Source: Naegleria gruberi (Eukaryota). Taken from it: 10,744 nucleotides of DNA. Shown piece after piece: positions 1 through 10,744 of the stretch (position 1 is its first letter; the number at the start of each line of letters is the position of its first letter). The translations under genes and the position numbers were made by a program. Below the pieces are notes generated by a model. That model made no database searches. It worked only from the letters and a program-made list of their open reading frames with translations, and was not told the origin of the DNA. The stretch lies in NCBI GenBank assembly GCA_000004985.1, contig GG739020.1, one strand, 5' to 3'.

Positions 1-1301
1 ATATTTGAGAATGTAACATACTTAGCACAACAAGGATATTTTCTTATTAATTCTCGGGCAATGTCAACAGAGGATGAATTTTTCAAAATTAATTCGGCCA
101 TATCTTCATTCCATTCCACACCTTGATGTTGGATCATTTGCTTTATAAGGGCATGATCATTCAATACTGTAGTGAGATGATCAAGACTAAGATAGTTGGC
201 AACCAAAATATTCTTGTTCATTGCCTTTACAATAACCTGTTCATCCAATGTAATCTCTGTGGTGCCCATTAAAAAAGCTTTGTGTGAAATATCAAGAAGT
301 TTCAAAAGTTGTTCTTTCGAGGAAATCAAGTTTGAGTTGAGCAATTCAGATTCATTAACTTTGGAAGTGAGAATCGATTCAATTAAATTGGAATAGAATG
401 GGTAGCTTTTTTCAACCCAATAGATGGCTCTCCAGTCATTTGAAACAGATTTGAAGATGGAAAAGTGACTCTTTCTAATATTTTCACCAGCTCTTTGAAT
501 AGCCATCCCACTTGTGAATATGGAAGTCTCAAACAAATCCTGTCTATTTCTAAATTCTCTATTTAGGTAGTAAAATGAATCTCCGTTCAATTCTACGGCT
601 TTCTTTACAAAATCTTCATCTTGTCTCAGATTGAATGGAAGAAACTTGAAAGCAGCTCCATTATTTCTAATGGCTTCAAGAACAATATCTCGATTTTGAA
701 GAATATCTGGATGTGCGTAATAGAGAAATAATCCATTTTCCTTGACACGAGCTTTTATATATTCTGGATCATTTCGTAATTCATGTGAAATTTCTTCCAA
801 AGTGTCAATTTCACCGTGGTTAGTCTTAATCTTCTTTGTTTGCCTGTTTTTTGGTAGATCAGGAATAGAAAGACTTGAGTCATTATGATCTGAAGGGTTG
901 AGCATGAGTTTTGAATCACCCTGCCACCAATTTGCTCTGTTACATACGGCATCAGAAAGTGTTTCTCCCTTTCCAAAAATAAATATTCCCTCTGTTGAAA
1001 TAGGAGATTTAACAGCCCAAACAACAGATTTTGTAGGTCTTGTACAATATTCCAAAGGAATAATTAAGGAATTGGTTAAGGAAAATAATTGGTCCTCCTT
1101 GTACCATTCCAGGAACAATTTGGTTTGGTTGACAAAGGTACTCTTTAGGGGACCACTAAAGGTTGATAAATCAAGATGGACAACCACTGGATCCTGTTCT
1201 TCTTCTGTTGATGTCCTTGCTTCTTGTGATGGATTCATGATTCGTCTTGTTGTTTTGATTTTTTTTATAAATAAAATGGTTATTTGATGCTTGGCATACA
1301 T
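1..1301 (-). CDS. DUF4116-repeat protein, 3'-partial. The C-terminus lies beyond the window start. The longest ORF starts at the ATG at 1301..1299, and an in-frame alternative start is at 1238..1236.
   Basis: I translated the reverse strand by hand. The reading frame stays open from the ATG at 1301 (preceded in frame by a TAA at 1307..1305) to position 1, with no stop in about 433 codons. That is very unlikely by chance in AT-rich DNA. The translation begins MYAKHQITILFIKKIKTTRRIMNPSQEARTSTEEEQDPVVVHLDL. It contains ...ISHELRNDPEYIKARVKENGLFLYYAHPDILQNRDIVLEAIRNNGAAFKFLPFNLRQDEDFVKKAVELNGDSFYYLNREFRNRQDLF... and continues to ...DIARELIRKYPCCAKYVTFSN at the window edge. The ORF track omits it because there is no in-window stop. 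Its + strand entries 196..396 and 898..1287 and its minus entry 755..1024 are antisense or off-frame shadows of this gene. Confidence 0.85.
   Translation of the reverse strand, partial: MYAKHQITILFIKKIKTTRRIMNPSQEARTSTEEEQDPVVVHLDLSTFSGPLKSTFVNQTKLFLEWYKEDQLFSLTNSLIIPLEYCTRPTKSVVWAVKSPISTEGIFIFGKGETLSDAVCNRANWWQGDSKLMLNPSDHNDSSLSIPDLPKNRQTKKIKTNHGEIDTLEEISHELRNDPEYIKARVKENGLFLYYAHPDILQNRDIVLEAIRNNGAAFKFLPFNLRQDEDFVKKAVELNGDSFYYLNREFRNRQDLFETSIFTSGMAIQRAGENIRKSHFSIFKSVSNDWRAIYWVEKSYPFYSNLIESILTSKVNESELLNSNLISSKEQLLKLLDISHKAFLMGTTEITLDEQVIVKAMNKNILVANYLSLDHLTTVLNDHALIKQMIQHQGVEWNEDMAELILKNSSSVDIARELIRKYPCCAKYVTFSN
528..791 (-). other. Three tandem repeats of about 29 aa inside the CDS. The motif is ELRNDxE[VI]VLxA[VI][KR]xNGxA[LF]xY[AL], which matches the DUF4116 repeat signature as I recall it.
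   Basis: This covers residues about 150-237 of the translation. The pattern 'NG-hydrophobic-hydrophobic-x-Y' followed by 'ELRND/NLRQD/EFRNR' then 'hhhxAh+xNG' repeats with a period of about 29 aa. Downstream helical segments (DEQVIVKAMNKNILVANYLSLDHL...) look like degenerate additional copies. Confidence 0.6.
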
Positions 1302-1374
1302 ATTTTAAAGTTGGAATTGAGCCTATTTTTGTATGAATGGTGGAAATTGCGTTACATCTAAGGTTTCCTTAATA

Positions 1375-2678
1375 NNNNNNNNNNNNNNNNNNNNNNNNNN
1401 NNNNNNNNNNNNNNNNNNNNNNNNNNNNNNNNNNNNNNNNNNNNNNNNNNNNNNNNNNNNNNNNNNNNNNNNNNNNNNNNNNNNNNNNNNNNNNNNNNNN
1501 NNNNNNNNNNNNNNNNNNNNNNNNNNNNNNNNNNNNNNNNNNNNNNNNNNNNNNNNNNNNNNNNNNNNNNNNNNNNNNNNNNNNNNNNNNNNNNNNNNNN
1601 NNNNNNNNNNNNNNNNNNNNNNNNNNNNNNNNNNNNNNNNNNNNNNNNNNNNNNNNNNNNNNNNNNNNNNNNNNNNNNNNNNNNNNNNNNNNNNNNNNNN
1701 NNNNNNNNNNNNNNNNNNNNNNNNNNNNNNNNNNNNNNNNNNNNNNNNNNNNNNNNNNNNNNNNNNNNNNNNNNNNNNNNNNNNNNNNNNNNNNNNNNNN
1801 NNNNNNNNNNNNNNNNNNNNNNNNNNNNNNNNNNNNNNNNNNNNNNNNNNNNNNNNNNNNNNNNNNNNNNNNNNNNNNNNNNNNNNNNNNNNNNNNNNNN
1901 NNNNNNNNNNNNNNNNNNNNNNNNNNNNNNNNNNNNNNNNNNNNNNNNNNNNNNNNNNNNNNNNNNNNNNNNNNNNNNNNNNNNNNNNNNNNNNNNNNNN
2001 NNNNNNNNNNNNNNNNNNNNNNNNNNNNNNNNNNNNNNNNNNNNNNNNNNNNNNNNNNNNNNNNNNNNNNNNNNNNNNNNNNNNNNNNNNNNNNNNNNNN
2101 NNNNNNNNNNNNNNNNNNNNNNNNNNNNNNNNNNNNNNNNNNNNNNNNNNNNNNNNNNNNNNNNNNNNNNNNNNNNNNNNNNNNNNNNNNNNNNNNNNNN
2201 NNNNNNNNNNNNNNNNNNNNNNNNNNNNNNNNNNNNNNNNNNNNNNNNNNNNNNNNNNNNNNNNNNNNNNNNNNNNNNNNNNNNNNNNNNNNNNNNNNNN
2301 NNNNNNNNNNNNNNNNNNNNNNNNNNNNNNNNNNNNNNNNNNNNNNNNNNNNNNNNNNNNNNNNNNNNNNNNNNNNNNNNNNNNNNNNNNNNNNNNNNNN
2401 NNNNNNNNNNNNNNNNNNNNNNNNNNNNNNNNNNNNNNNNNNNNNNNNNNNNNNNNNNNNNNNNNNNNNNNNNNNNNNNNNNNNNNNNNNNNNNNNNNNN
2501 NNNNNNNNNNNNNNNNNNNNNNNNNNNNNNNNNNNNNNNNNNNNNNNNNNNNNNNNNNNNNNNNNNNNNNNNNNNNNNNNNNNNNNNNNNNNNNNNNNNN
2601 NNNNNNNNNNNNNNNNNNNNNNNNNNNNNNNNNNNNNNNNNNNNNNNNNNNNNNNNNNNNNNNNNNNNNNNNNNNNNN
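1375..2678. other. Hard-masked block of 1304 N. Its content (repeat, gene or gap) cannot be determined.
   Basis: Contiguous run of n. On the right flank, all three minus-strand frames and all three + frames hit stops within about 12 codons of the block edge. So no CDS extends far out of it to the right. Confidence 0.99.
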
Positions 2679-2799
2679 GAATATTTAATTATTCTTTATT
2701 AAACTTCCACTTCTAATAATCACCATCACTAGTAATAAAATAAATATGAAATTACAACTATATTTCTTAATAACTTAACTGATAAATAATATGAATAAT

Positions 2800-3250
2800 G
2801 TTTAATAAGAGTTGTAGTATTGAATATCATGTTATTGTTTAATTGTTGATTTGTTGTTGAAGACAAAATTGATGGTTAGGAATTAAGATACTGTTGATAT
2901 TGTTGTTATTGTGTTTGATGACATCAATATTTTGCTTGTTGTTGTTTCATCATTCATTGTTGTTAGAATTTTGTTGAGTAGTTGTGGTAGTATTATTGTA
3001 AACAATAGGAGTAGTGGTTGTTGTTGAATTATTGAAGATGATGTTGTTCAACTACTGCTGTGATATTATTTTCATCCCGATATATTGTTGTTGTTGTGTT
3101 GAATGGTATTATTATTGTTAAATAAGGTTAAGGAAAAGTAAAGAGGTATTGGATGTTAATAATATTGTTGATGTGATATTGGAAGTAGTTTAAGTTAAAG
3201 GTAAGTTGTTCATAATTGACGTGTGGTTGTTTTTTTTTATTATGTTGGCG
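2800..3250 (+). repeat. GT-rich, C-depleted cryptic simple sequence. Interrupted (TTG)n/(GTT)n tracts, which read as (CAA)n on the minus strand.
   Basis: The + strand has only about 20 C in about 430 nt. There are repeated 'ttgttgttg' blocks at about 2848-2864, 2895-2912, 2935-2951, 2955-2970, 3016-3034, 3082-3106 and 3161-3175, and a T9 run at 3231-3239. No convincing ORF is present. The minus 3128..3334 ORF is low-complexity and rejected. Confidence 0.8.
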
Positions 3251-3313
3251 CCAAATAATCCTTAAGTTTCTTTTGTAAGCGAAAACCGTAGATACTGTAT
3301 AATAATGATAGAT

Positions 3314-3413
3314 GTTTATTATGGTGGCAACCATTATGAATATTTATAATGGTGGTTCATGATGTCTTAAAGTAACAACTATGATAAATATTTATAATGG
3401 TGGCTATGAATAG
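3314..3413. repeat. Cluster of three copies of the motif T(T/A)ATGGTGG, with AT-rich dyad-symmetric cores.
   Basis: 'tattatggtgg' lies at 3317-3327. 'tatgaatatttataatggtgg' lies at 3335-3355. 'tatgataaatatttataatggtgg' lies at 3380-3403. 'ccattatgaatatttataatgg' (3331-3352) is a 20/22 palindrome. Related copies are 'tatgaatggtgg' at 1332-1343 and 'taatggtg' at 3587-3594. Confidence 0.6.
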
Positions 3414-3664
3414 TCTAATACTATCACTTCAACAAAACACATGAAAATGCTTTATTCGATGAGTAGAGATTGAACATTAAGTTTATTTACTTTGATATTC
3501 ATAATTTCAACAGATACGTACCACTAAGAAGCTAGGACGAAAATATGGAAGAATAAAAACCACCTTATTGTGTTGTTGAATCATCTTAATGGTGAAACAG
3601 GGTGGAACCTGGTTTTAAGGATGTAATATTTTTGTTCTTCATAGCAAATAATGTAAATGGTTTA

Positions 3665-3880
3665 GTTTTCATATATTTTAGTCACCTTTCAGTAAGGTAA
3701 AGGGTGAAATGGGAAGTTCACATGGTCAACAATGAAAAGGAAATCCTGTAAAATGACCACTCAATGCAACTTTACCATAAGGTTCTACATCTTAAATAAT
3801 GTATGCGGTTCAATTTTCAGACATTTTGGTGAATATTCCATCTTTCAGTAAGGTAAAGAGTGATTTATCAAGGTTGACTT
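3665..3880 (+). repeat. Two-copy direct repeat spaced about 156 bp apart. The core is 'ctttcagtaaggtaaagRgtga' and it can form a short hairpin.
   Basis: Copy 1 is at 3686-3707 (ctttcagtaaggtaaagggtga) and copy 2 at 3842-3863 (ctttcagtaaggtaaagagtga), a 21/22 match. The flanks are also similar: 'ttttca.a.atttt.g' upstream and 'gggaag' downstream. In copy 1, 'tcaccttt' pairs with 'aaagg(g)tga' around the loop 'cagtaaggt'. Confidence 0.6.
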
Positions 3881-4376
3881 GGGAAGATTAGGAGGAAATC
3901 TTCAAATAGAAAACCACATCCTCTATCTACAAAAAATATATCAATCGAATGGAAATCAATAATACATCTCGAAAATATAATTTATTTTATGGTTTGAATT
4001 CTCTCCTTTAAACCTCTTTTAGTCAATTAAGACAATTAAGGATGATACTATAAGGAAAGTTACCAATCTCAAAATAAATGATAATATCATGTTATACATC
4101 TCAAATAGGGCGGTCTTTCTTCAAATTATATATTTTCATTTCAAGAAATACATCCGGTAGATAGTACATGGTGATATTTCAAGTGAATGGAAATCTGAAA
4201 GGTACAGAAACAACTCCATTTTCACTGAAATTGATATCATGATATATAGACACTCTAATTTGCATATGGTATCAATCTCATAAATAAATATTGGTTCAGT
4301 AGATGTCGAGATGTCAACTCTATCACTTTACTATAGACTTTTGACATGATATCATAGATTATTAACTCCAACTCAC

Positions 4377-4381
4377 TCATT
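4377..4381 (+). promoter_or_regulatory. Initiator-like element TCATT, 24 nt upstream of the ATG at 4403 that opens into the masked block.
   Basis: The TCA(+1)YW pattern is seen directly. It only means something if the host uses a parabasalid-type Inr, which is an inference. Confidence 0.25.
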
Positions 4382-4406
4382 TTACATACAATCAGTCTAG
4401 AAATGA

Positions 4407-7400
4407 NNNNNNNNNNNNNNNNNNNNNNNNNNNNNNNNNNNNNNNNNNNNNNNNNNNNNNNNNNNNNNNNNNNNNNNNNNNNNNNNNNNNNNNNNNNNNN
4501 NNNNNNNNNNNNNNNNNNNNNNNNNNNNNNNNNNNNNNNNNNNNNNNNNNNNNNNNNNNNNNNNNNNNNNNNNNNNNNNNNNNNNNNNNNNNNNNNNNNN
4601 NNNNNNNNNNNNNNNNNNNNNNNNNNNNNNNNNNNNNNNNNNNNNNNNNNNNNNNNNNNNNNNNNNNNNNNNNNNNNNNNNNNNNNNNNNNNNNNNNNNN
4701 NNNNNNNNNNNNNNNNNNNNNNNNNNNNNNNNNNNNNNNNNNNNNNNNNNNNNNNNNNNNNNNNNNNNNNNNNNNNNNNNNNNNNNNNNNNNNNNNNNNN
4801 NNNNNNNNNNNNNNNNNNNNNNNNNNNNNNNNNNNNNNNNNNNNNNNNNNNNNNNNNNNNNNNNNNNNNNNNNNNNNNNNNNNNNNNNNNNNNNNNNNNN
4901 NNNNNNNNNNNNNNNNNNNNNNNNNNNNNNNNNNNNNNNNNNNNNNNNNNNNNNNNNNNNNNNNNNNNNNNNNNNNNNNNNNNNNNNNNNNNNNNNNNNN
5001 NNNNNNNNNNNNNNNNNNNNNNNNNNNNNNNNNNNNNNNNNNNNNNNNNNNNNNNNNNNNNNNNNNNNNNNNNNNNNNNNNNNNNNNNNNNNNNNNNNNN
5101 NNNNNNNNNNNNNNNNNNNNNNNNNNNNNNNNNNNNNNNNNNNNNNNNNNNNNNNNNNNNNNNNNNNNNNNNNNNNNNNNNNNNNNNNNNNNNNNNNNNN
5201 NNNNNNNNNNNNNNNNNNNNNNNNNNNNNNNNNNNNNNNNNNNNNNNNNNNNNNNNNNNNNNNNNNNNNNNNNNNNNNNNNNNNNNNNNNNNNNNNNNNN
5301 NNNNNNNNNNNNNNNNNNNNNNNNNNNNNNNNNNNNNNNNNNNNNNNNNNNNNNNNNNNNNNNNNNNNNNNNNNNNNNNNNNNNNNNNNNNNNNNNNNNN
5401 NNNNNNNNNNNNNNNNNNNNNNNNNNNNNNNNNNNNNNNNNNNNNNNNNNNNNNNNNNNNNNNNNNNNNNNNNNNNNNNNNNNNNNNNNNNNNNNNNNNN
5501 NNNNNNNNNNNNNNNNNNNNNNNNNNNNNNNNNNNNNNNNNNNNNNNNNNNNNNNNNNNNNNNNNNNNNNNNNNNNNNNNNNNNNNNNNNNNNNNNNNNN
5601 NNNNNNNNNNNNNNNNNNNNNNNNNNNNNNNNNNNNNNNNNNNNNNNNNNNNNNNNNNNNNNNNNNNNNNNNNNNNNNNNNNNNNNNNNNNNNNNNNNNN
5701 NNNNNNNNNNNNNNNNNNNNNNNNNNNNNNNNNNNNNNNNNNNNNNNNNNNNNNNNNNNNNNNNNNNNNNNNNNNNNNNNNNNNNNNNNNNNNNNNNNNN
5801 NNNNNNNNNNNNNNNNNNNNNNNNNNNNNNNNNNNNNNNNNNNNNNNNNNNNNNNNNNNNNNNNNNNNNNNNNNNNNNNNNNNNNNNNNNNNNNNNNNNN
5901 NNNNNNNNNNNNNNNNNNNNNNNNNNNNNNNNNNNNNNNNNNNNNNNNNNNNNNNNNNNNNNNNNNNNNNNNNNNNNNNNNNNNNNNNNNNNNNNNNNNN
6001 NNNNNNNNNNNNNNNNNNNNNNNNNNNNNNNNNNNNNNNNNNNNNNNNNNNNNNNNNNNNNNNNNNNNNNNNNNNNNNNNNNNNNNNNNNNNNNNNNNNN
6101 NNNNNNNNNNNNNNNNNNNNNNNNNNNNNNNNNNNNNNNNNNNNNNNNNNNNNNNNNNNNNNNNNNNNNNNNNNNNNNNNNNNNNNNNNNNNNNNNNNNN
6201 NNNNNNNNNNNNNNNNNNNNNNNNNNNNNNNNNNNNNNNNNNNNNNNNNNNNNNNNNNNNNNNNNNNNNNNNNNNNNNNNNNNNNNNNNNNNNNNNNNNN
6301 NNNNNNNNNNNNNNNNNNNNNNNNNNNNNNNNNNNNNNNNNNNNNNNNNNNNNNNNNNNNNNNNNNNNNNNNNNNNNNNNNNNNNNNNNNNNNNNNNNNN
6401 NNNNNNNNNNNNNNNNNNNNNNNNNNNNNNNNNNNNNNNNNNNNNNNNNNNNNNNNNNNNNNNNNNNNNNNNNNNNNNNNNNNNNNNNNNNNNNNNNNNN
6501 NNNNNNNNNNNNNNNNNNNNNNNNNNNNNNNNNNNNNNNNNNNNNNNNNNNNNNNNNNNNNNNNNNNNNNNNNNNNNNNNNNNNNNNNNNNNNNNNNNNN
6601 NNNNNNNNNNNNNNNNNNNNNNNNNNNNNNNNNNNNNNNNNNNNNNNNNNNNNNNNNNNNNNNNNNNNNNNNNNNNNNNNNNNNNNNNNNNNNNNNNNNN
6701 NNNNNNNNNNNNNNNNNNNNNNNNNNNNNNNNNNNNNNNNNNNNNNNNNNNNNNNNNNNNNNNNNNNNNNNNNNNNNNNNNNNNNNNNNNNNNNNNNNNN
6801 NNNNNNNNNNNNNNNNNNNNNNNNNNNNNNNNNNNNNNNNNNNNNNNNNNNNNNNNNNNNNNNNNNNNNNNNNNNNNNNNNNNNNNNNNNNNNNNNNNNN
6901 NNNNNNNNNNNNNNNNNNNNNNNNNNNNNNNNNNNNNNNNNNNNNNNNNNNNNNNNNNNNNNNNNNNNNNNNNNNNNNNNNNNNNNNNNNNNNNNNNNNN
7001 NNNNNNNNNNNNNNNNNNNNNNNNNNNNNNNNNNNNNNNNNNNNNNNNNNNNNNNNNNNNNNNNNNNNNNNNNNNNNNNNNNNNNNNNNNNNNNNNNNNN
7101 NNNNNNNNNNNNNNNNNNNNNNNNNNNNNNNNNNNNNNNNNNNNNNNNNNNNNNNNNNNNNNNNNNNNNNNNNNNNNNNNNNNNNNNNNNNNNNNNNNNN
7201 NNNNNNNNNNNNNNNNNNNNNNNNNNNNNNNNNNNNNNNNNNNNNNNNNNNNNNNNNNNNNNNNNNNNNNNNNNNNNNNNNNNNNNNNNNNNNNNNNNNN
7301 NNNNNNNNNNNNNNNNNNNNNNNNNNNNNNNNNNNNNNNNNNNNNNNNNNNNNNNNNNNNNNNNNNNNNNNNNNNNNNNNNNNNNNNNNNNNNNNNNNNN

Positions 7401-9149
7401 NNNNNNNNNNNNNNNNNNNNNNNNNNNNNNNNNNNNNNNNNNNNNNNNNNNNNNNNNNNNNNNNNNNNNNNNNNNNNNNNNNNNNNNNNNNNNNNNNNNN
7501 NNNNNNNNNNNNNNNNNNNNNNNNNNNNNNNNNNNNNNNNNNNNNNNNNNNNNNNNNNNNNNNNNNNNNNNNNNNNNNNNNNNNNNNNNNNNNNNNNNNN
7601 NNNNNNNNNNNNNNNNNNNNNNNNNNNNNNNNNNNNNNNNNNNNNNNNNNNNNNNNNNNNNNNNNNNNNNNNNNNNNNNNNNNNNNNNNNNNNNNNNNNN
7701 NNNNNNNNNNNNNNNNNNNNNNNNNNNNNNNNNNNNNNNNNNNNNNNNNNNNNNNNNNNNNNNNNNNNNNNNNNNNNNNNNNNNNNNNNNNNNNNNNNNN
7801 NNNNNNNNNNNNNNNNNNNNNNNNNNNNNNNNNNNNNNNNNNNNNNNNNNNNNNNNNNNNNNNNNNNNNNNNNNNNNNNNNNNNNNNNNNNNNNNNNNNN
7901 NNNNNNNNNNNNNNNNNNNNNNNNNNNNNNNNNNNNNNNNNNNNNNNNNNNNNNNNNNNNNNNNNNNNNNNNNNNNNNNNNNNNNNNNNNNNNNNNNNNN
8001 NNNNNNNNNNNNNNNNNNNNNNNNNNNNNNNNNNNNNNNNNNNNNNNNNNNNNNNNNNNNNNNNNNNNNNNNNNNNNNNNNNNNNNNNNNNNNNNNNNNN
8101 NNNNNNNNNNNNNNNNNNNNNNNNNNNNNNNNNNNNNNNNNNNNNNNNNNNNNNNNNNNNNNNNNNNNNNNNNNNNNNNNNNNNNNNNNNNNNNNNNNNN
8201 NNNNNNNNNNNNNNNNNNNNNNNNNNNNNNNNNNNNNNNNNNNNNNNNNNNNNNNNNNNNNNNNNNNNNNNNNNNNNNNNNNNNNNNNNNNNNNNNNNNN
8301 NNNNNNNNNNNNNNNNNNNNNNNNNNNNNNNNNNNNNNNNNNNNNNNNNNNNNNNNNNNNNNNNNNNNNNNNNNNNNNNNNNNNNNNNNNNNNNNNNNNN
8401 NNNNNNNNNNNNNNNNNNNNNNNNNNNNNNNNNNNNNNNNNNNNNNNNNNNNNNNNNNNNNNNNNNNNNNNNNNNNNNNNNNNNNNNNNNNNNNNNNNNN
8501 NNNNNNNNNNNNNNNNNNNNNNNNNNNNNNNNNNNNNNNNNNNNNNNNNNNNNNNNNNNNNNNNNNNNNNNNNNNNNNNNNNNNNNNNNNNNNNNNNNNN
8601 NNNNNNNNNNNNNNNNNNNNNNNNNNNNNNNNNNNNNNNNNNNNNNNNNNNNNNNNNNNNNNNNNNNNNNNNNNNNNNNNNNNNNNNNNNNNNNNNNNNN
8701 NNNNNNNNNNNNNNNNNNNNNNNNNNNNNNNNNNNNNNNNNNNNNNNNNNNNNNNNNNNNNNNNNNNNNNNNNNNNNNNNNNNNNNNNNNNNNNNNNNNN
8801 NNNNNNNNNNNNNNNNNNNNNNNNNNNNNNNNNNNNNNNNNNNNNNNNNNNNNNNNNNNNNNNNNNNNNNNNNNNNNNNNNNNNNNNNNNNNNNNNNNNN
8901 NNNNNNNNNNNNNNNNNNNNNNNNNNNNNNNNNNNNNNNNNNNNNNNNNNNNNNNNNNNNNNNNNNNNNNNNNNNNNNNNNNNNNNNNNNNNNNNNNNNN
9001 NNNNNNNNNNNNNNNNNNNNNNNNNNNNNNNNNNNNNNNNNNNNNNNNNNNNNNNNNNNNNNNNNNNNNNNNNNNNNNNNNNNNNNNNNNNNNNNNNNNN
9101 NNNNNNNNNNNNNNNNNNNNNNNNNNNNNNNNNNNNNNNNNNNNNNNNN
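4407..9149. other. Hard-masked block of 4743 N. It probably covers most of one large + strand ORF, as described in the findings.
   Basis: Contiguous run of n. The + frame defined by the ATG at 4403 is the same frame as the 128-codon open segment at 9150-9535. Confidence 0.99.
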
Positions 9150-9535
9150 TATTACTAGCCGAAGTAATTTATACTGAATATATGCAAAACCAAGCCTGTA
9201 ATTCACTTTCAATAGTTTTTCATGCCATGAATAAGGAGTCTTTACCAATTACCAATTCAAAATACCATGATGTGGTATTCATAGAAAATCGAAATGAAAT
9301 TGCACAACTGTTTGGGGAAGAATTTGCTTCTGCCATTTCTGTTTTTCTTTCCAAGAAGCACAACACAGATACTGAGAAATCAACAAATAATCAGATTTCC
9401 TGTCAGTGTAAGATAGGTAGCATTCATTGCTTTAATTGTGTTTGTGCAAAGCAGGGTCAAAAATGCTCGTCCTCATGTCTTTGTAAAGGAGATTGTGAAC
9501 GAACCAAATATGGATTAAACTCAAGCTATCAATAA
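9150..9535 (+). CDS. C-terminal 128 codons of an ORF emerging from the masked block. It ends in a 9-Cys CXC (tesmin/TSO1/LIN54-like) zinc-cluster motif, with a TAA stop at 9533-9535. It may be the end of one 1710-codon ORF starting at 4403, or a separate short gene starting at the ATG at 9182.
   Basis: The frame is open from the block edge to the stop. The translation reads ...LLAEVIYTEYMQNQACNSLSIVFHAMNKESLPITNSKYHDVVFIENRNEIAQLFGEEFASAISVFLSKKHNTDTEKSTNNQISCQCKIGSIHCFNCVCAKQGQKCSSSCLCKGDCERTKYGLNSSYQ*. The Cys spacing is C-x-C-x6-C-x2-C-x-C-x6-C-x3-C-x-C-x3-C. The stop is followed by A, giving TAAA. The opposite-strand ORF (minus, start 9248) shows no recognisable motif. Confidence 0.55.
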
Positions 9536-9595
9536 ACTAAAATAACCTGTCTCAATACTATGCGGAATTTGCCTTAATAATTTTCTGAGCATAAG

Positions 9596-9684
9596 GGGCG
9601 GTTAGCTCAGCGGTAGAGCACCGGATTGCAAAGATATTTGCAGCAGACATCCGATGGTCACGTGTTCGATCCACGTACCACCCT
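9596..9684 (+). tRNA. tRNA-Cys, anticodon GCA at 9628-9630, intron-containing, with a U73 discriminator.
   Basis: The acceptor is GGGCGGT/ACCACCC with one C4-A69 mismatch. The D-arm is GCTC-AGCGGTA-GAGC and is canonical (A box TAGCTCAGCGGTAGAGC). The anticodon stem is CCGGA/TCCGA with a C27-A43 mismatch, and the loop is TTGCAA+A. The variable loop is TGGTC. The T-arm is ACGTG-TTCGATC-CACGT (B box GTTCGATCC). The discriminator T at 9684 matches the known Cys identity element U73. The gene is 89 nt, made of a 72-nt mature body and a 17-nt intron. Confidence 0.75.
9632..9648 (+). other. 17-nt tRNA intron at the canonical 37/38 position. The boundary is ambiguous by 1 nt.
   Basis: The sequence is agatatttgcagcagac. 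Its internal TGC (9639-9641) is complementary to the anticodon GCA. That is the typical anticodon-intron pairing of eukaryotic pre-tRNAs. Confidence 0.6.
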
Positions 9685-9687
9685 TCC

Positions 9688-9691
9688 TTTT
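9688..9691 (+). terminator. Pol III T-run (TTTT), 4 nt downstream of the tRNA.
   Basis: The sequence '...accaccc t tcc tttt ag' is read directly. Confidence 0.5.
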
Positions 9692-10023
9692 AGATATTGC
9701 ACCTAACGGTAATTATTGATGCTTAGAGCTCGCTTAATGTGAGATTTCATTCCAAAATAAATCCTACCCATATATAACCAGCTTTGCCTAATTGTACACT
9801 AACTTTAATGAAATCCACCCTAGAACTTTTTTTCACCCGAGATTGTTGTCTGCCTGGATCTTTAGGCGAGTAAAGTGGGCGGACGTATCCAATAAGGATG
9901 CACCATCTCAGAAAGTGGACATTTAAATTCCAAGATTTTAACAATCATAATTAAAACGTTGGAAAAATCAACGATTATCAAGCAATCCAATTCGAGTGAA
10001 AAAAAAAGTGCAACAATAATAGT

Positions 10024-10744
10024 ATGGACTGTTTCGACATTGATGCTTATCTGAAACGTATTGGTTTGAATTCACGTATCCATGTGGAAGAGGAATTTAA
10101 GTCAATTTCGTATGCATTGTTGCATGCCATTGTGTGGAATCATGCAACTCATATTCCATTCGAAAATCTGGCAACTATTTATCCAGATGAATATCGTATA
10201 GTTTCCGATTCAAATTCTAAAATCAAAGTATCTCTGGATCCAAATGATATTTTCAGGAAAATGGTGTTAAATGATCGTGGAGGTTTTTGTTTCGAACAGA
10301 ATCTTCTATTGGCGAGAGCTTTGAGAGAATTTGGCTTTACTGTCAAACCCATTGGAGCCAGAGGTGTTAATCGCTTGGCAGAAGTAGATCCAATCTCTGG
10401 ATTGCCAGTTGGTCCTTTCACTCACTTGGCTCTATTGGTTGATTGCCAAGATGGAAACACTTATTTGGTGGATAATGGTTTAGGATGGGGTGGTATGCCA
10501 AGATCTCCTCTCCCACTTGTCAATGGAAGTGAAAAGACAGAAAGTACTGGAGAAGTATTTCGATTGGTATTGGGAACTATTTCACAAAGCACAAAATTAA
10601 ATTTTGACAAATGGGGTTGCTTTAGATTTCAAACAGGTGTCAATACAGATCATCAAGATATAAAAGATGGGAAAGTTGTTAGTGGACAGTGGTTTCTCCA
10701 ATATAAAAACAAGGCAGAATCTGACTGGTGGGATATTATGCATT
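10024..10744 (+). CDS. NAT: Arylamine N-acetyltransferase (NAT family), 5'-complete and 3'-partial. 240 codons are in the window and about 50 are missing.
   Basis: The ATG at 10024 is preceded by an in-frame TGA at 9997-9999. The translation starts MDCFDIDAYLKRIGLNSRIHVEEEFKSISYALLHAIVWNHATHIPFENLATIY... It continues ...VLNDRGGFCFEQNLLLARAL...GPFTHLALLVDCQDGNTYLVDNGLGWGG... and reaches ...WFLQYKNKAESDWWDIMH at the window edge. This aligns with NAT hallmarks. The N-terminal 'DxxAYxxRIG' and 'PFENL' are present. The catalytic Cys lies in RGGFCFEQN, with the codon tgt at 10288-10290. The His lies in THLALLV and the Asp in VDNGLG. For comparison, human NAT has RGGWCLQVN, IHLLLQV and VDAGFG. The ORF track lacks this gene because it runs off the window. 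The minus 10179..10421 ORF is its antisense shadow. Confidence 0.9.
   Translation, partial: MDCFDIDAYLKRIGLNSRIHVEEEFKSISYALLHAIVWNHATHIPFENLATIYPDEYRIVSDSNSKIKVSLDPNDIFRKMVLNDRGGFCFEQNLLLARALREFGFTVKPIGARGVNRLAEVDPISGLPVGPFTHLALLVDCQDGNTYLVDNGLGWGGMPRSPLPLVNGSEKTESTGEVFRLVLGTISQSTKLNFDKWGCFRFQTGVNTDHQDIKDGKVVSGQWFLQYKNKAESDWWDIMH

What the first reader, a model, noticed from the sequence alone, without database searches (positions are those of the whole stretch)
9596..9691. Intron-containing tRNA-Cys(GCA) with two stem mismatches
The D- and T-arms are textbook, and the U73 discriminator fits Cys identity. The 17-nt intron sits at 37/38 and pairs with the anticodon (TGC at 9639-9641). All of this is seen in the sequence. 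Introns in tRNA-Cys are uncommon in well-studied eukaryotes, where they are mostly in Tyr, Leu, Ile and a few others. The C4-A69 and C27-A43 mismatches raise the question of whether this is a functional gene or a decaying copy. tRNA genes are also frequent landmarks for integration of mobile DNA. The masked block upstream and the NAT gene downstream make the neighbourhood worth checking.
Basis: partly seen in the sequence, partly recalled or inferred. Interest (0 to 1): 0.5.

Follow-up and report, generated by a model that had tools for sequence, protein, structure and literature searches.

The report
Ordinary intron-containing tRNA-Cys gene of Naegleria
This is a normal-looking nuclear cysteine tRNA gene of the amoeba Naegleria gruberi with a short standard intron; one of its two odd base pairs is shared with a second copy of the gene, and the other is a single private mutation, so the finding is real but ordinary.

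Summary
Window 9596-9684 (+) is a tRNA-Cys(GCA) gene: Rfam tRNA scores 50.4 bits against a threshold of 29, and ARAGORN in intron mode calls a 17-nt intron at 37/38. It has U73, C4.A69, C27.A43 and a TTTT terminator at 9688-9691.

The window is a whole 10.7-kb scaffold of Naegleria gruberi. A second N. gruberi-type locus, L001, lies next to the paralogous NAT2 gene. It carries the same tRNA unit: 87 of 89 bases are identical, while the NAT coding sequences are about 71-75% identical and the flanks do not align.

That copy has the same intron (16/17) and the same C27.A43, but U4-A69. So the intron and C27.A43 are maintained features of both copies seen. C4.A69 is a private T-to-C change of this copy or haplotig. 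It costs about 3.9 kcal/mol in the predicted cloverleaf.

All 30 conserved positions checked are intact. The intron can form the canonical eukaryotic bulge-helix-loop with a U32.G anticodon-intron pair.

I found no evidence of decay beyond the one substitution, and none of mobile-DNA integration. Expression and splicing were not testable. Interest is low.

The parts
9579..9595 (+). 5' leader and upstream motif AATTTTCTGAGCATAAG, shared with the second locus. It includes G-1 at 9595.
   Evidence: blastn of window against L001 extends the conserved tRNA block to 9579-9691 (94.7% over 114 columns) while the rest of the flank does not align. L001 has AATTTTGTTGAGCATAA at 113-97 on the minus strand. 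Its function as a Pol III upstream element is inferred, not shown.
9596..9631 (+). 5' exon, G1-A37: acceptor 5' strand, D arm, anticodon-stem 5' strand and the anticodon loop through A37.
   Evidence: Rfam alignment, ARAGORN -i, position check.
9603..9613 (+). A-box-like internal promoter element TAGCTCAGCGG (positions 8-19).
   Evidence: 10 of 11 matches to TRGCNNAGTGG. The consensus is quoted from memory.
9599..9599 (+). C4, mismatched with A69 (9680). This is the private substitution of this copy.
   Evidence: Rfam NC line marks the pair as non-standard. L001 has T at this position, giving U4-A69 with no NC mark. The predicted cloverleaf is -20.8 kcal/mol with C4 and -24.7 with U4.
9621..9621 (+). 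C27, mismatched with A43 (9654). The mismatch is shared by both loci.
   Evidence: Marked as non-standard in the window and in L001. Identical bases in both.
9628..9630 (+). Anticodon GCA (Cys).
9632..9648 (+). 17-nt intron AGATATTTGCAGCAGAC between positions 37 and 38.
   Evidence: ARAGORN -i. Rfam shows a 19-nt insertion at the same site. 16 of 17 bases are identical in L001.
9643..9646 (+). Intron GCAG (nt 12-15). It pairs with C35, G34, U33 and U32, which gives the canonical helix and the U32.G anticodon-intron pair. A16-C17-A38 is left as a 3-nt bulge that holds the 3' splice site.
   Evidence: Structure evaluated at -23.3 kcal/mol against -19.4 for the cloverleaf alone. It matches the BHL definition in PMC10275265.
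9638..9642 (+). Intron UUGCA (nt 7-11). It gives the alternative pairing with A37-U33, which includes the anticodon.
   Evidence: MFE fold at -27.4 to -27.5 kcal/mol.
9649..9684 (+). 3' exon, A38-U73: anticodon-stem 3' strand, 5-nt variable loop, T arm, acceptor 3' strand and discriminator U73.
9663..9673 (+). B-box-like internal promoter element TGTTCGATCCA (positions 52-62).
   Evidence: G53, T54, T55, C56, A58 and C61 are all present. The two deviations from GGTTCGANNCC are the paired positions 52 and 62.
9685..9691 (+). 3' trailer TCC plus the TTTT run, a Pol III terminator-type signal.
   Evidence: Read directly. L001 has ACCTTTT in the same place.

Best explanation
Window 9596-9684 is a genuine nuclear tRNA-Cys(GCA) gene of Naegleria gruberi with a canonical protein-spliced intron. 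The steps below are inferred from the anatomy and from established eukaryotic tRNA biology; none was measured here. RNA polymerase III is recruited through the internal A and B boxes, possibly helped by the conserved 17-nt upstream motif, and terminates at TTTT 9688-9691. RNase P and a 3' nuclease remove the leader and trailer, and CCA is added. The 17-nt intron folds with the anticodon loop into a bulge-helix-loop, with pairs C35-G, G34-C, U33-A and U32.G. The tRNA splicing endonuclease cuts after A37 and before A38. One of the organism's RtcB- or Rnl1-type ligases joins the halves into a 72-nt tRNA, which CysRS charges through U73 and GCA. The intron and the C27.A43 mismatch are maintained features of both tRNA-Cys copies seen. 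C4.A69 is a private T-to-C transition of this copy, which sits on a small scaffold that duplicates part of a 508-kb scaffold. It weakens the acceptor stem, so this copy probably yields a less stable tRNA, but it is not a degraded pseudogene.
For: The tRNA model score is well above threshold and it is the only RNA hit in the window. ARAGORN -i gives Cys(gca) with a 17-nt intron at 37/38. All 30 conserved positions checked are standard, 19 of 21 stem pairs are canonical, the bases at the tertiary-pair positions 8-14, 15-48, 18-55, 19-56 and 54-58 are the usual ones, and the A and B boxes are recognisable. The organism was identified from the NAT and DUF4116 proteins, which are 100% identical to N. 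gruberi entries on a 10744-nt contig. The second locus L001 encodes a NAT that matches N. gruberi NAT2 at 284 of 285 aligned residues. It carries the same tRNA at 87/89 bases, with the intron at 16/17, the same C27.A43 and U4-A69, and scores 54.7 bits. By contrast the NAT coding sequences are 71-75% identical and the flanks do not align. At those background identities, 16/17 in the intron has P about 0.001-0.02. The BHL with an A-I pair can form and matches the textbook definition (PMC10275265). U73 plus GCA are the major Cys identity elements (PMC9976931). N. gruberi encodes two RtcB and seven Rnl1-family ligases (PMC4408790).
Against: There are no expression, splicing or charging data. Only two tRNA-Cys loci could be compared, so 'feature of the gene family' rests on n = 2. 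High identity between copies could come from gene conversion and not from selection on each copy. The splice-competent BHL is about 4 kcal/mol less stable than the alternative fold, in which the 5' splice site lies inside a weak A-U helix end. With C4 the predicted MFE of the mature tRNA no longer has a full acceptor stem. The TSEN genes of N. gruberi were not checked.
Confidence: 0.8

Rival explanations
1. This particular copy is a young pseudogene or a crippled allele. The T4-to-C change breaks the acceptor stem enough that the transcript is misprocessed or removed by rapid tRNA decay, and the cell relies on other tRNA-Cys copies.
For: C4.A69 is absent from the other locus. It costs about 3.9 kcal/mol, and the predicted MFE re-pairs the acceptor 3' strand with the variable loop. 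Acceptor-stem mutants are the classical substrates of rapid tRNA decay in yeast (PMC10275265). The copy lies on a small redundant scaffold. The genome is reported to hold 924 tDNAs, so redundancy is high (PMC2888827).
Against: This is the only private change in the exons. The promoter boxes, terminator, intron pairing and all conserved positions are intact. The Rfam score of 50.4 is close to the 54.7 of the paired copy. Single C.A oppositions can be tolerated in helices; that statement is background knowledge and was not tested.
Confidence: 0.2
2. C4 is not a biological feature of a working gene. It is a sequencing or assembly error, or a rare haplotype variant, on a low-coverage 10.7-kb scaffold that duplicates a region of the 508-kb scaffold.
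For: The window's NAT is 237/240 identical to the NAT on the 508-kb scaffold, and its DUF4116 gene has an 85% identical twin there. About 56% of the scaffold reads as N.
Against: Nothing points directly to an error. The three NAT amino-acid differences and the 15% DUF4116 divergence show that the scaffold is a truly different sequence and not a misassembled copy.
Confidence: 0.1
3. Both C.A mismatches are repaired after transcription by C-to-U editing, to U4-A69 and U27-A43.
For: Both mismatches are of the one type that C-to-U editing would fix. The other locus has U4 in its DNA. N. gruberi is reported to have 11 DYW-type PPR proteins but only two verified mitochondrial editing sites, and the authors suggest that the excess proteins may have other or cytoplasmic roles (PMC4202320).
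Against: The known DYW-PPR editing in this organism is mitochondrial and acts on mRNA. This is a nuclear Pol III gene. In silico, a U27-A43 pair creates a 9-bp palindromic hairpin that beats the cloverleaf (-30.8 against -25.7 kcal/mol), so repair at position 27 is not obviously useful. There are no RNA data.
Confidence: 0.03
4. The tRNA gene marks an integration site of mobile or horizontally acquired DNA, and the downstream NAT gene is the cargo.
For: Outside Naegleria, the NAT relatives that were looked up (about 48-51% identity) sit in contigs with prokaryote-type neighbours such as a sigma-54 activator domain and a histidine-kinase domain. Both NAT paralogues have a tRNA-Cys gene within 400 nt upstream.
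Against: There is no duplicated tRNA 3' end or att-like repeat in the window or in L001. No integrase or transposase is visible. The tRNA is intact. The linkage is better explained by an old duplication of a tRNA-Cys plus NAT segment. A third NAT lineage (L002, L003) has no tRNA upstream.
Confidence: 0.04

Closest known systems
Canonical eukaryotic nuclear intron-containing tRNA genes, such as S. cerevisiae tRNA-Phe(GAA) and tRNA-Tyr(GUA) or human tRNA-Tyr, spliced by the SEN/TSEN endonuclease
   Same: The intron lies exactly between 37 and 38. At 17 nt it is within the known 6-133 nt range. Intron bases pair with N33-N35, and there is an A-I pair between U32 and the antepenultimate intron purine. 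The 3' splice site sits in a 3-nt bulge. The intron is nearly identical between the two gene copies, as within budding-yeast families (PMC10275265; PMC4090602).
   Different: The isotype is Cys, which has no intron in the standard model organisms. The A-I pair is a U.G wobble. A second, more stable pairing is possible because the intron contains UGCA, which is self-complementary with the U33-A36 of the anticodon loop. Splicing was not demonstrated.
Archaeal bulge-helix-bulge (hBHBh') tRNA introns
   Same: A central 4-bp helix forms between positions 32-35 and the intron, and a 3-nt bulge on the 3' side carries the splice site.
   Different: The 5' splice site lies in a 13-nt loop and not in a 3-nt bulge closed by a second helix. 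The motif is therefore BHL, the relaxed eukaryotic form. The host is a eukaryote.
Plant mitochondrial tRNA-Phe with a C4.A69 mismatch corrected to U4-A69 by C-to-U editing (recalled from memory, not checked here)
   Same: It has the same mismatch at the same acceptor-stem position. The organism is reported to possess DYW-type PPR editing factors (PMC4202320).
   Different: That is an organellar gene edited inside the organelle. This is a nuclear Pol III gene with a spliceosome-independent intron, and there is no RNA evidence of editing.
tRNA pseudogenes and tRNA-derived repeats
   Same: A base-pair disruption in the acceptor stem, and a location on a redundant scaffold.
   Different: No loss of conserved nucleotides, promoter boxes or terminator. 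Only one private substitution. No truncation and no flanking repeat.

Membership tests
tRNA (Rfam RF00005), nuclear Pol III type-2 gene | Cloverleaf sequence and structure scoring above the curated threshold | tested here: met
   50.4 bits against a gathering score of 29, E 1.3e-08, full-length model match 1-71.
tRNA (Rfam RF00005), nuclear Pol III type-2 gene | Invariant and semi-invariant nucleotides, and the usual bases at the tertiary-pair positions (U8-A14, R15-Y48, G18, G19, U33, G53, T54, T55, C56, A58, C61) | tested here: met
   30 of 30 checked positions are standard.
tRNA (Rfam RF00005), nuclear Pol III type-2 gene | All four stems fully base-paired | tested here: not met
   19 of 21 pairs are canonical. 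C4.A69 and C27.A43 are not. This is a quality feature, not a strict membership criterion.
tRNA (Rfam RF00005), nuclear Pol III type-2 gene | Internal A and B boxes and a downstream run of at least four T | tested here: met
   A box 10 of 11, B box with all invariant bases, TTTT at 9688-9691. The consensus sequences are from memory.
tRNA (Rfam RF00005), nuclear Pol III type-2 gene | Transcribed and processed to a mature tRNA | not testable with these tools
   No RNA data are available.
tRNA-Cys identity set | GCA anticodon and U73 discriminator | tested here: met
   G34 C35 A36 and U73 are present. They are the major determinants according to PMC9976931.
tRNA-Cys identity set | Charged by CysRS | not testable with these tools
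   Biochemical test.
Canonical eukaryotic tRNA intron (BHL, TSEN substrate) | Intron between N37 and N38 | tested here: met
   ARAGORN -i reports the insertion position as 37-38.
Canonical eukaryotic tRNA intron (BHL, TSEN substrate) | Helix between N33-N35 and the intron, extended by an A-I pair between Y32 and the antepenultimate intron purine, with splice sites single-stranded | tested here: met
   C35-G12, G34-C13, U33-A14 and U32.G15 can form. The bulge A16-C17-A38 and a 13-nt loop hold the two splice sites. Energy -23.3 kcal/mol. Caveat: a competing fold is 4 kcal/mol more stable.
Canonical eukaryotic tRNA intron (BHL, TSEN substrate) | Intron shared by other gene copies of the same isoacceptor | tested here: met
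   The second locus has the intron at 16 of 17 identical bases. Only two loci could be examined.
Canonical eukaryotic tRNA intron (BHL, TSEN substrate) | Removal by the splicing endonuclease and a ligase | not testable with these tools
   Candidate ligases are reported for N. gruberi (PMC4408790). The endonuclease genes were not checked.
Archaeal strict hBHBh' motif | Two 3-nt bulges flanking a 4-bp helix, closed by outer helices on both sides | tested here: not met
   The 3' bulge and the 4-bp helix are present. The 5' side is a 13-nt loop with no closing helix.
tRNA pseudogene | Several disruptive changes in conserved positions, promoter or ends relative to functional paralogues | tested here: not met
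   One private exon substitution (position 4) and one intron substitution relative to L001. Everything else is intact.
C-to-U edited tRNA | A genomic C read as U in the RNA, restoring a pair | not testable with these tools
   Both mismatches are C.A. No transcript data.

The most novel reading that the evidence does not exclude
The two C.A oppositions (C4.A69 and the conserved C27.A43) are sites of C-to-U editing of a nuclear-encoded tRNA in N. gruberi. This protist is reported to have 11 DYW-type PPR proteins but only two known editing sites. Editing might occur, for example, after import of tRNA-Cys into mitochondria. That would extend plant-type editing to a nuclear Pol III transcript.
Probability: 0.03. 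Interest if true: 0.7.

Novelty: already known. Interest (0 to 1): 0.15.

Why it matters
It matters little beyond annotation. The result shows that N. gruberi tRNA-Cys genes carry a standard 37/38 intron and a conserved C27.A43 mismatch. Default bacterial-mode tRNA finders miss them, so genome annotators should use intron-aware eukaryotic settings. The C4.A69 copy could serve as a natural test case for acceptor-stem quality control (rapid tRNA decay) outside yeast. The conserved C.A pair gives a cheap, specific place to look for tRNA editing in an organism with unexplained editing factors. The linkage of tRNA-Cys to both NAT paralogues documents an old segmental duplication followed by local inversion.

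Tried and rejected
1. Default ARAGORN returned 0 genes. I rejected this as evidence against the finding, because that mode does not search for introns and aragorn -i finds the gene.

2. I searched for more copies by DNA pattern. Two metagenome scans, two genome-contig scans and two viral scans all returned 0 hits. These collections do not appear to hold Naegleria DNA.

3. I tried to reach other N. gruberi scaffolds through proteins. P0038, P0039, P0040 and P0041 are not in the gene-position index. As a result the allelic or duplicate copy on the 508-kb scaffold could not be read.

4. The 127-aa Cys-rich ORF upstream (9152-9535) was tried as a synteny anchor. It has no homologues and no Pfam hit.

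5. I first took L001 to be a different species, because its NAT is 66% identical to the window's. Cluster look-up and BLASTP showed it matches the N. gruberi NAT2 paralogue. The comparison is therefore between two loci of one genome or of very close strains, not between species.

6. The NAT relatives P0005 and P0006 lie in bacterial-type contigs, so they were no use for the tRNA.

7. L002 and L003, a third NAT lineage at 65%, have no tRNA upstream, and their upstream gene is unrelated.

8. I looked for an att-like repeat of the tRNA 3' end and found none.

9. Tandem-repeat and promoter/terminator scans gave nothing relevant.

10. A first numbering map wrongly skipped position 47 and produced false deviations. 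It was corrected.

Full report
**What is there**

Window 9596-9684 (+) matches the Rfam tRNA model over its full length. The score is 50.4 bits against a gathering score of 29, with E 1.3e-08. It is the only RNA-family hit in the window, even with the threshold relaxed to E<=1.

The packaged ARAGORN call returned nothing, but that mode does not allow introns. Running aragorn -i gives tRNA-Cys(gca) with a 17-nt intron, AGATATTTGCAGCAGAC, between positions 37 and 38.

Coordinates read from the sequence and checked by script:
- 5' exon: 9596-9631.
- Intron: 9632-9648.
- 3' exon: 9649-9684.
- Anticodon GCA: 9628-9630.
- Discriminator U73: 9684.
- Trailer TCC followed by TTTT: 9688-9691.
- C4 (9599) faces A69 (9680), and C27 (9621) faces A43 (9654).

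The other 19 stem pairs are canonical. All 30 invariant or semi-invariant positions I checked are standard. The bases at the tertiary-pair positions (8-14, 15-48, 18-55, 19-56, 54-58) are the usual ones, as are those of the 9, 45 and 46 triples. A-box and B-box-like sequences are recognisable.

**Where it comes from**

The partial N-acetyltransferase ORF (10024-10743+) is 100% identical to a 'predicted protein, partial [Naegleria gruberi]' on a contig of exactly 10744 nt. The same holds for the DUF4116 ORF on the minus strand (3-1238). The window is thus a whole small scaffold of N. gruberi.

Its NAT is 237/240 identical to the N. gruberi NAT on a 508-kb scaffold. The DUF4116 gene has an 85% identical twin two accession numbers away on that same scaffold. 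The window therefore looks like a haplotig or a recent duplicate of a region in the main assembly. About 56% of it reads as N (1375-2688 and 4407-9149).

**Comparison with a second locus**

The NAT search also led to L001, a 3-kb metagenome contig with about 36% G+C. Its NAT matches the N. gruberi 'arylamine N-acetyltransferase 2' paralogue at 284 of 285 aligned residues, apart from one 44-residue gap. L001 is therefore N. gruberi or a very close strain, and it represents a different locus.

It carries a tRNA-Cys(GCA) gene on the strand opposite to NAT, at 96..8, scoring 54.7 bits, with a 17-nt intron at 37/38.

The two tRNA units are identical at 87 of 89 positions. The two differences are:
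- Position 4, which is T in L001. That gives a Watson-Crick U4-A69.
- Intron nucleotide 3.

C27.A43 is identical in both. The conserved block extends only from 17 nt upstream (AATTTT-N-T(T)GAGCATAA) to the TTTT, where the L001 contig ends. By contrast, the NAT coding sequences are 71-75% identical and the rest of the intergenic DNA does not align.

At per-site identities of 0.58-0.71, 16/17 in the intron has P of about 0.001-0.02, and 87/89 overall has P below 1e-10. So the tRNA unit, intron included, has been held constant, either by purifying selection or by gene conversion between gene copies.

Near-identity of introns within a gene family is the known pattern in budding yeast (PMC10275265).

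The linkage to both NAT paralogues most likely reflects an old duplication of a tRNA-Cys plus NAT segment, followed by local inversion.

**What the mismatches mean**

C27.A43 is shared by both loci. It is therefore not a sign of decay in this copy.

As a thermodynamic aside, changing C27 to U in silico creates a perfect 9-bp palindromic hairpin. That hairpin out-competes the cloverleaf (-30.8 against -25.7 kcal/mol), so leaving this position unpaired may even be useful. This is a prediction only.

C4.A69 is private to the window's copy. It lowers the predicted cloverleaf stability from -24.7 to -20.8 kcal/mol. It also lets the acceptor 3' strand re-pair with the variable loop in the predicted MFE. 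In yeast, acceptor-stem mutants are the classical substrates of rapid tRNA decay (PMC10275265).

The most likely reading is a working family member carrying one mildly damaging transition. Whether that copy still contributes mature tRNA cannot be decided here.

**How the intron would be handled**

Two pairings of the intron with the anticodon loop are possible.

Intron U7-A11 (9638-9642, including TGC at 9639-9641) pairs with A37-U33. This works because UGCA is self-complementary with the loop's own U33-A36.
- The other fold (-23.3 kcal/mol, against -19.4 for the cloverleaf alone) pairs intron G12-C13-A14-G15 (9643-9646) with C35-G34-U33-U32. It leaves A16-C17-A38 as a 3-nt bulge holding the 3' splice site, and it puts the 5' splice site in a 13-nt loop.

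The second fold is exactly the eukaryotic bulge-helix-loop. It has the anticodon-intron pair between Y32 and the antepenultimate intron purine, as described by Phizicky and Hopper (PMC10275265). It is not a strict archaeal BHB, because no second helix closes the 5' bulge.

Both intron segments are identical in the two loci.

The remaining steps are inferred from general eukaryotic biology and were not tested:
- Pol III transcription.
- End processing and CCA addition.
- Cleavage by the tRNA splicing endonuclease.
- Sealing by an RtcB- or Rnl1-type ligase. N. gruberi is reported to encode two RtcB and seven Rnl1-family ligases (PMC4408790).
- Charging through U73 and GCA (PMC9976931).

**Is an intron in tRNA-Cys remarkable?**

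It is not unprecedented, though. The fraction of intron-containing tRNA genes ranges from a few percent up to 92% (132 of 143 genes) in Cryptococcus neoformans. The Guillardia nucleomorph tRNA-Cys even has three introns (PMC4090602). I found no paper describing tRNA introns in Naegleria.

**Neighbourhood and the mobile-DNA idea**

- Upstream of the tRNA lies the end of a Cys-rich ORF (stop at 9533-9535) with no homologues and no Pfam domain. Beyond it is a masked block.
- Downstream lies NAT. Outside Naegleria, the NAT relatives I looked up (about 48-51% identity) lie in contigs with prokaryote-type neighbours. That may hint at an old horizontal origin of the gene.
- There is no duplicated tRNA 3' end in the window or in L001, no visible integrase or transposase, and no tandem repeat.
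- A third NAT lineage has no tRNA upstream.

I see no evidence that this tRNA marks an insertion site.

**Verdict**

The object is a canonical intron-containing nuclear tRNA-Cys gene. The intron and C27.A43 are maintained in both copies seen, and C4.A69 is a one-base private change.

The kind is already known and the interest is low (0.15).

The only reading with real novelty is that the C.A oppositions are C-to-U editing sites. The organism is reported to have 11 DYW-type PPR proteins and only two known editing sites (PMC4202320). Nothing here excludes that reading, but it has no direct support. I put it at about 3%.

Noticed in passing
window 1-10744 (whole scaffold): The scaffold appears to be a haplotig or recent duplicate of a region on a 508-kb N. 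gruberi scaffold. Its NAT is 237/240 identical to EFC41126, and its DUF4116 protein is 85% identical to EFC41128 two accession numbers away.
   Followed up: partly
window 9579-10024 and L001 1-312: Both N. gruberi NAT paralogues (66% amino-acid identity) have a tRNA-Cys(GCA) gene 215-340 nt upstream of the ATG. The orientation differs: tandem in the window, divergent in L001. This suggests an old duplication of a tRNA plus NAT segment with a local inversion.
   Followed up: partly
window 9958-9978 (+); L001 298-277 (-): A 22-nt element, GTTGGAAAAA(C)TCAACGATTAT, contains a small hairpin (CGTTG...CAACG). It is conserved at 95% just upstream of both NAT genes and is inverted relative to NAT, like the tRNA. 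E is 0.015 in this small search, so it may be a regulatory site or a chance match.
   Followed up: no
window 9579-9595; L001 113-97 (-): The 5' leader AATTTT(C/G)T(T)GAGCATAA is conserved between the two tRNA-Cys loci, with a 1-nt offset relative to G1. It could be a Pol III upstream element, or it could have been carried along by gene conversion.
   Followed up: partly
window 9595: G-1 could pair with U73. ARAGORN drew an 8-bp acceptor stem starting at 9595. L001 has A at -1. This might influence the RNase P cleavage site.
   Followed up: no
window 10024-10743; loci L004-L011: Outside Naegleria, the NAT relatives I looked up (P0005 and P0006, about 48-51% identity) lie in contigs with prokaryote-type neighbours: a sigma-54 activator domain, a HisKA_3/HATPase histidine-kinase domain and RibD_C. 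The gene may have an old horizontal origin. No phylogeny was made.
   Followed up: no
window 9152-9535 (+): This is the C-terminal end of an ORF whose tail is rich in Cys (CQCKIGSIHCFNCVCAKQGQKCSSSCLCKGDC). It runs out of the masked block. It has no Pfam family, no homologue among 5.8 billion proteins, and is not on record as an N. gruberi protein.
   Followed up: partly
window 2689-4406: An AT-rich stretch with no long ORF and several degenerate short repeats. Examples are a 31-nt inverted repeat at 3327-3357 / 3374-3404, a 49-nt direct repeat 148 nt apart (3634 / 3782), and GTTGTTG-rich runs at 2840-3180.
   Followed up: no
L001 312-1169: The NAT2 product called on the metagenome contig lacks 44 residues near the C terminus relative to the N. 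gruberi reference NAT2 and is otherwise identical. This could be an in-frame deletion, strain variation or an assembly artefact. The adjacent gene is an FAD-linked oxidase.
   Followed up: no
window 9827-9840 and 9992-10005: A 14-nt inverted repeat (93% complementary, 151 nt apart) lies between the tRNA and the NAT start. It does not flank the tRNA.
   Followed up: no
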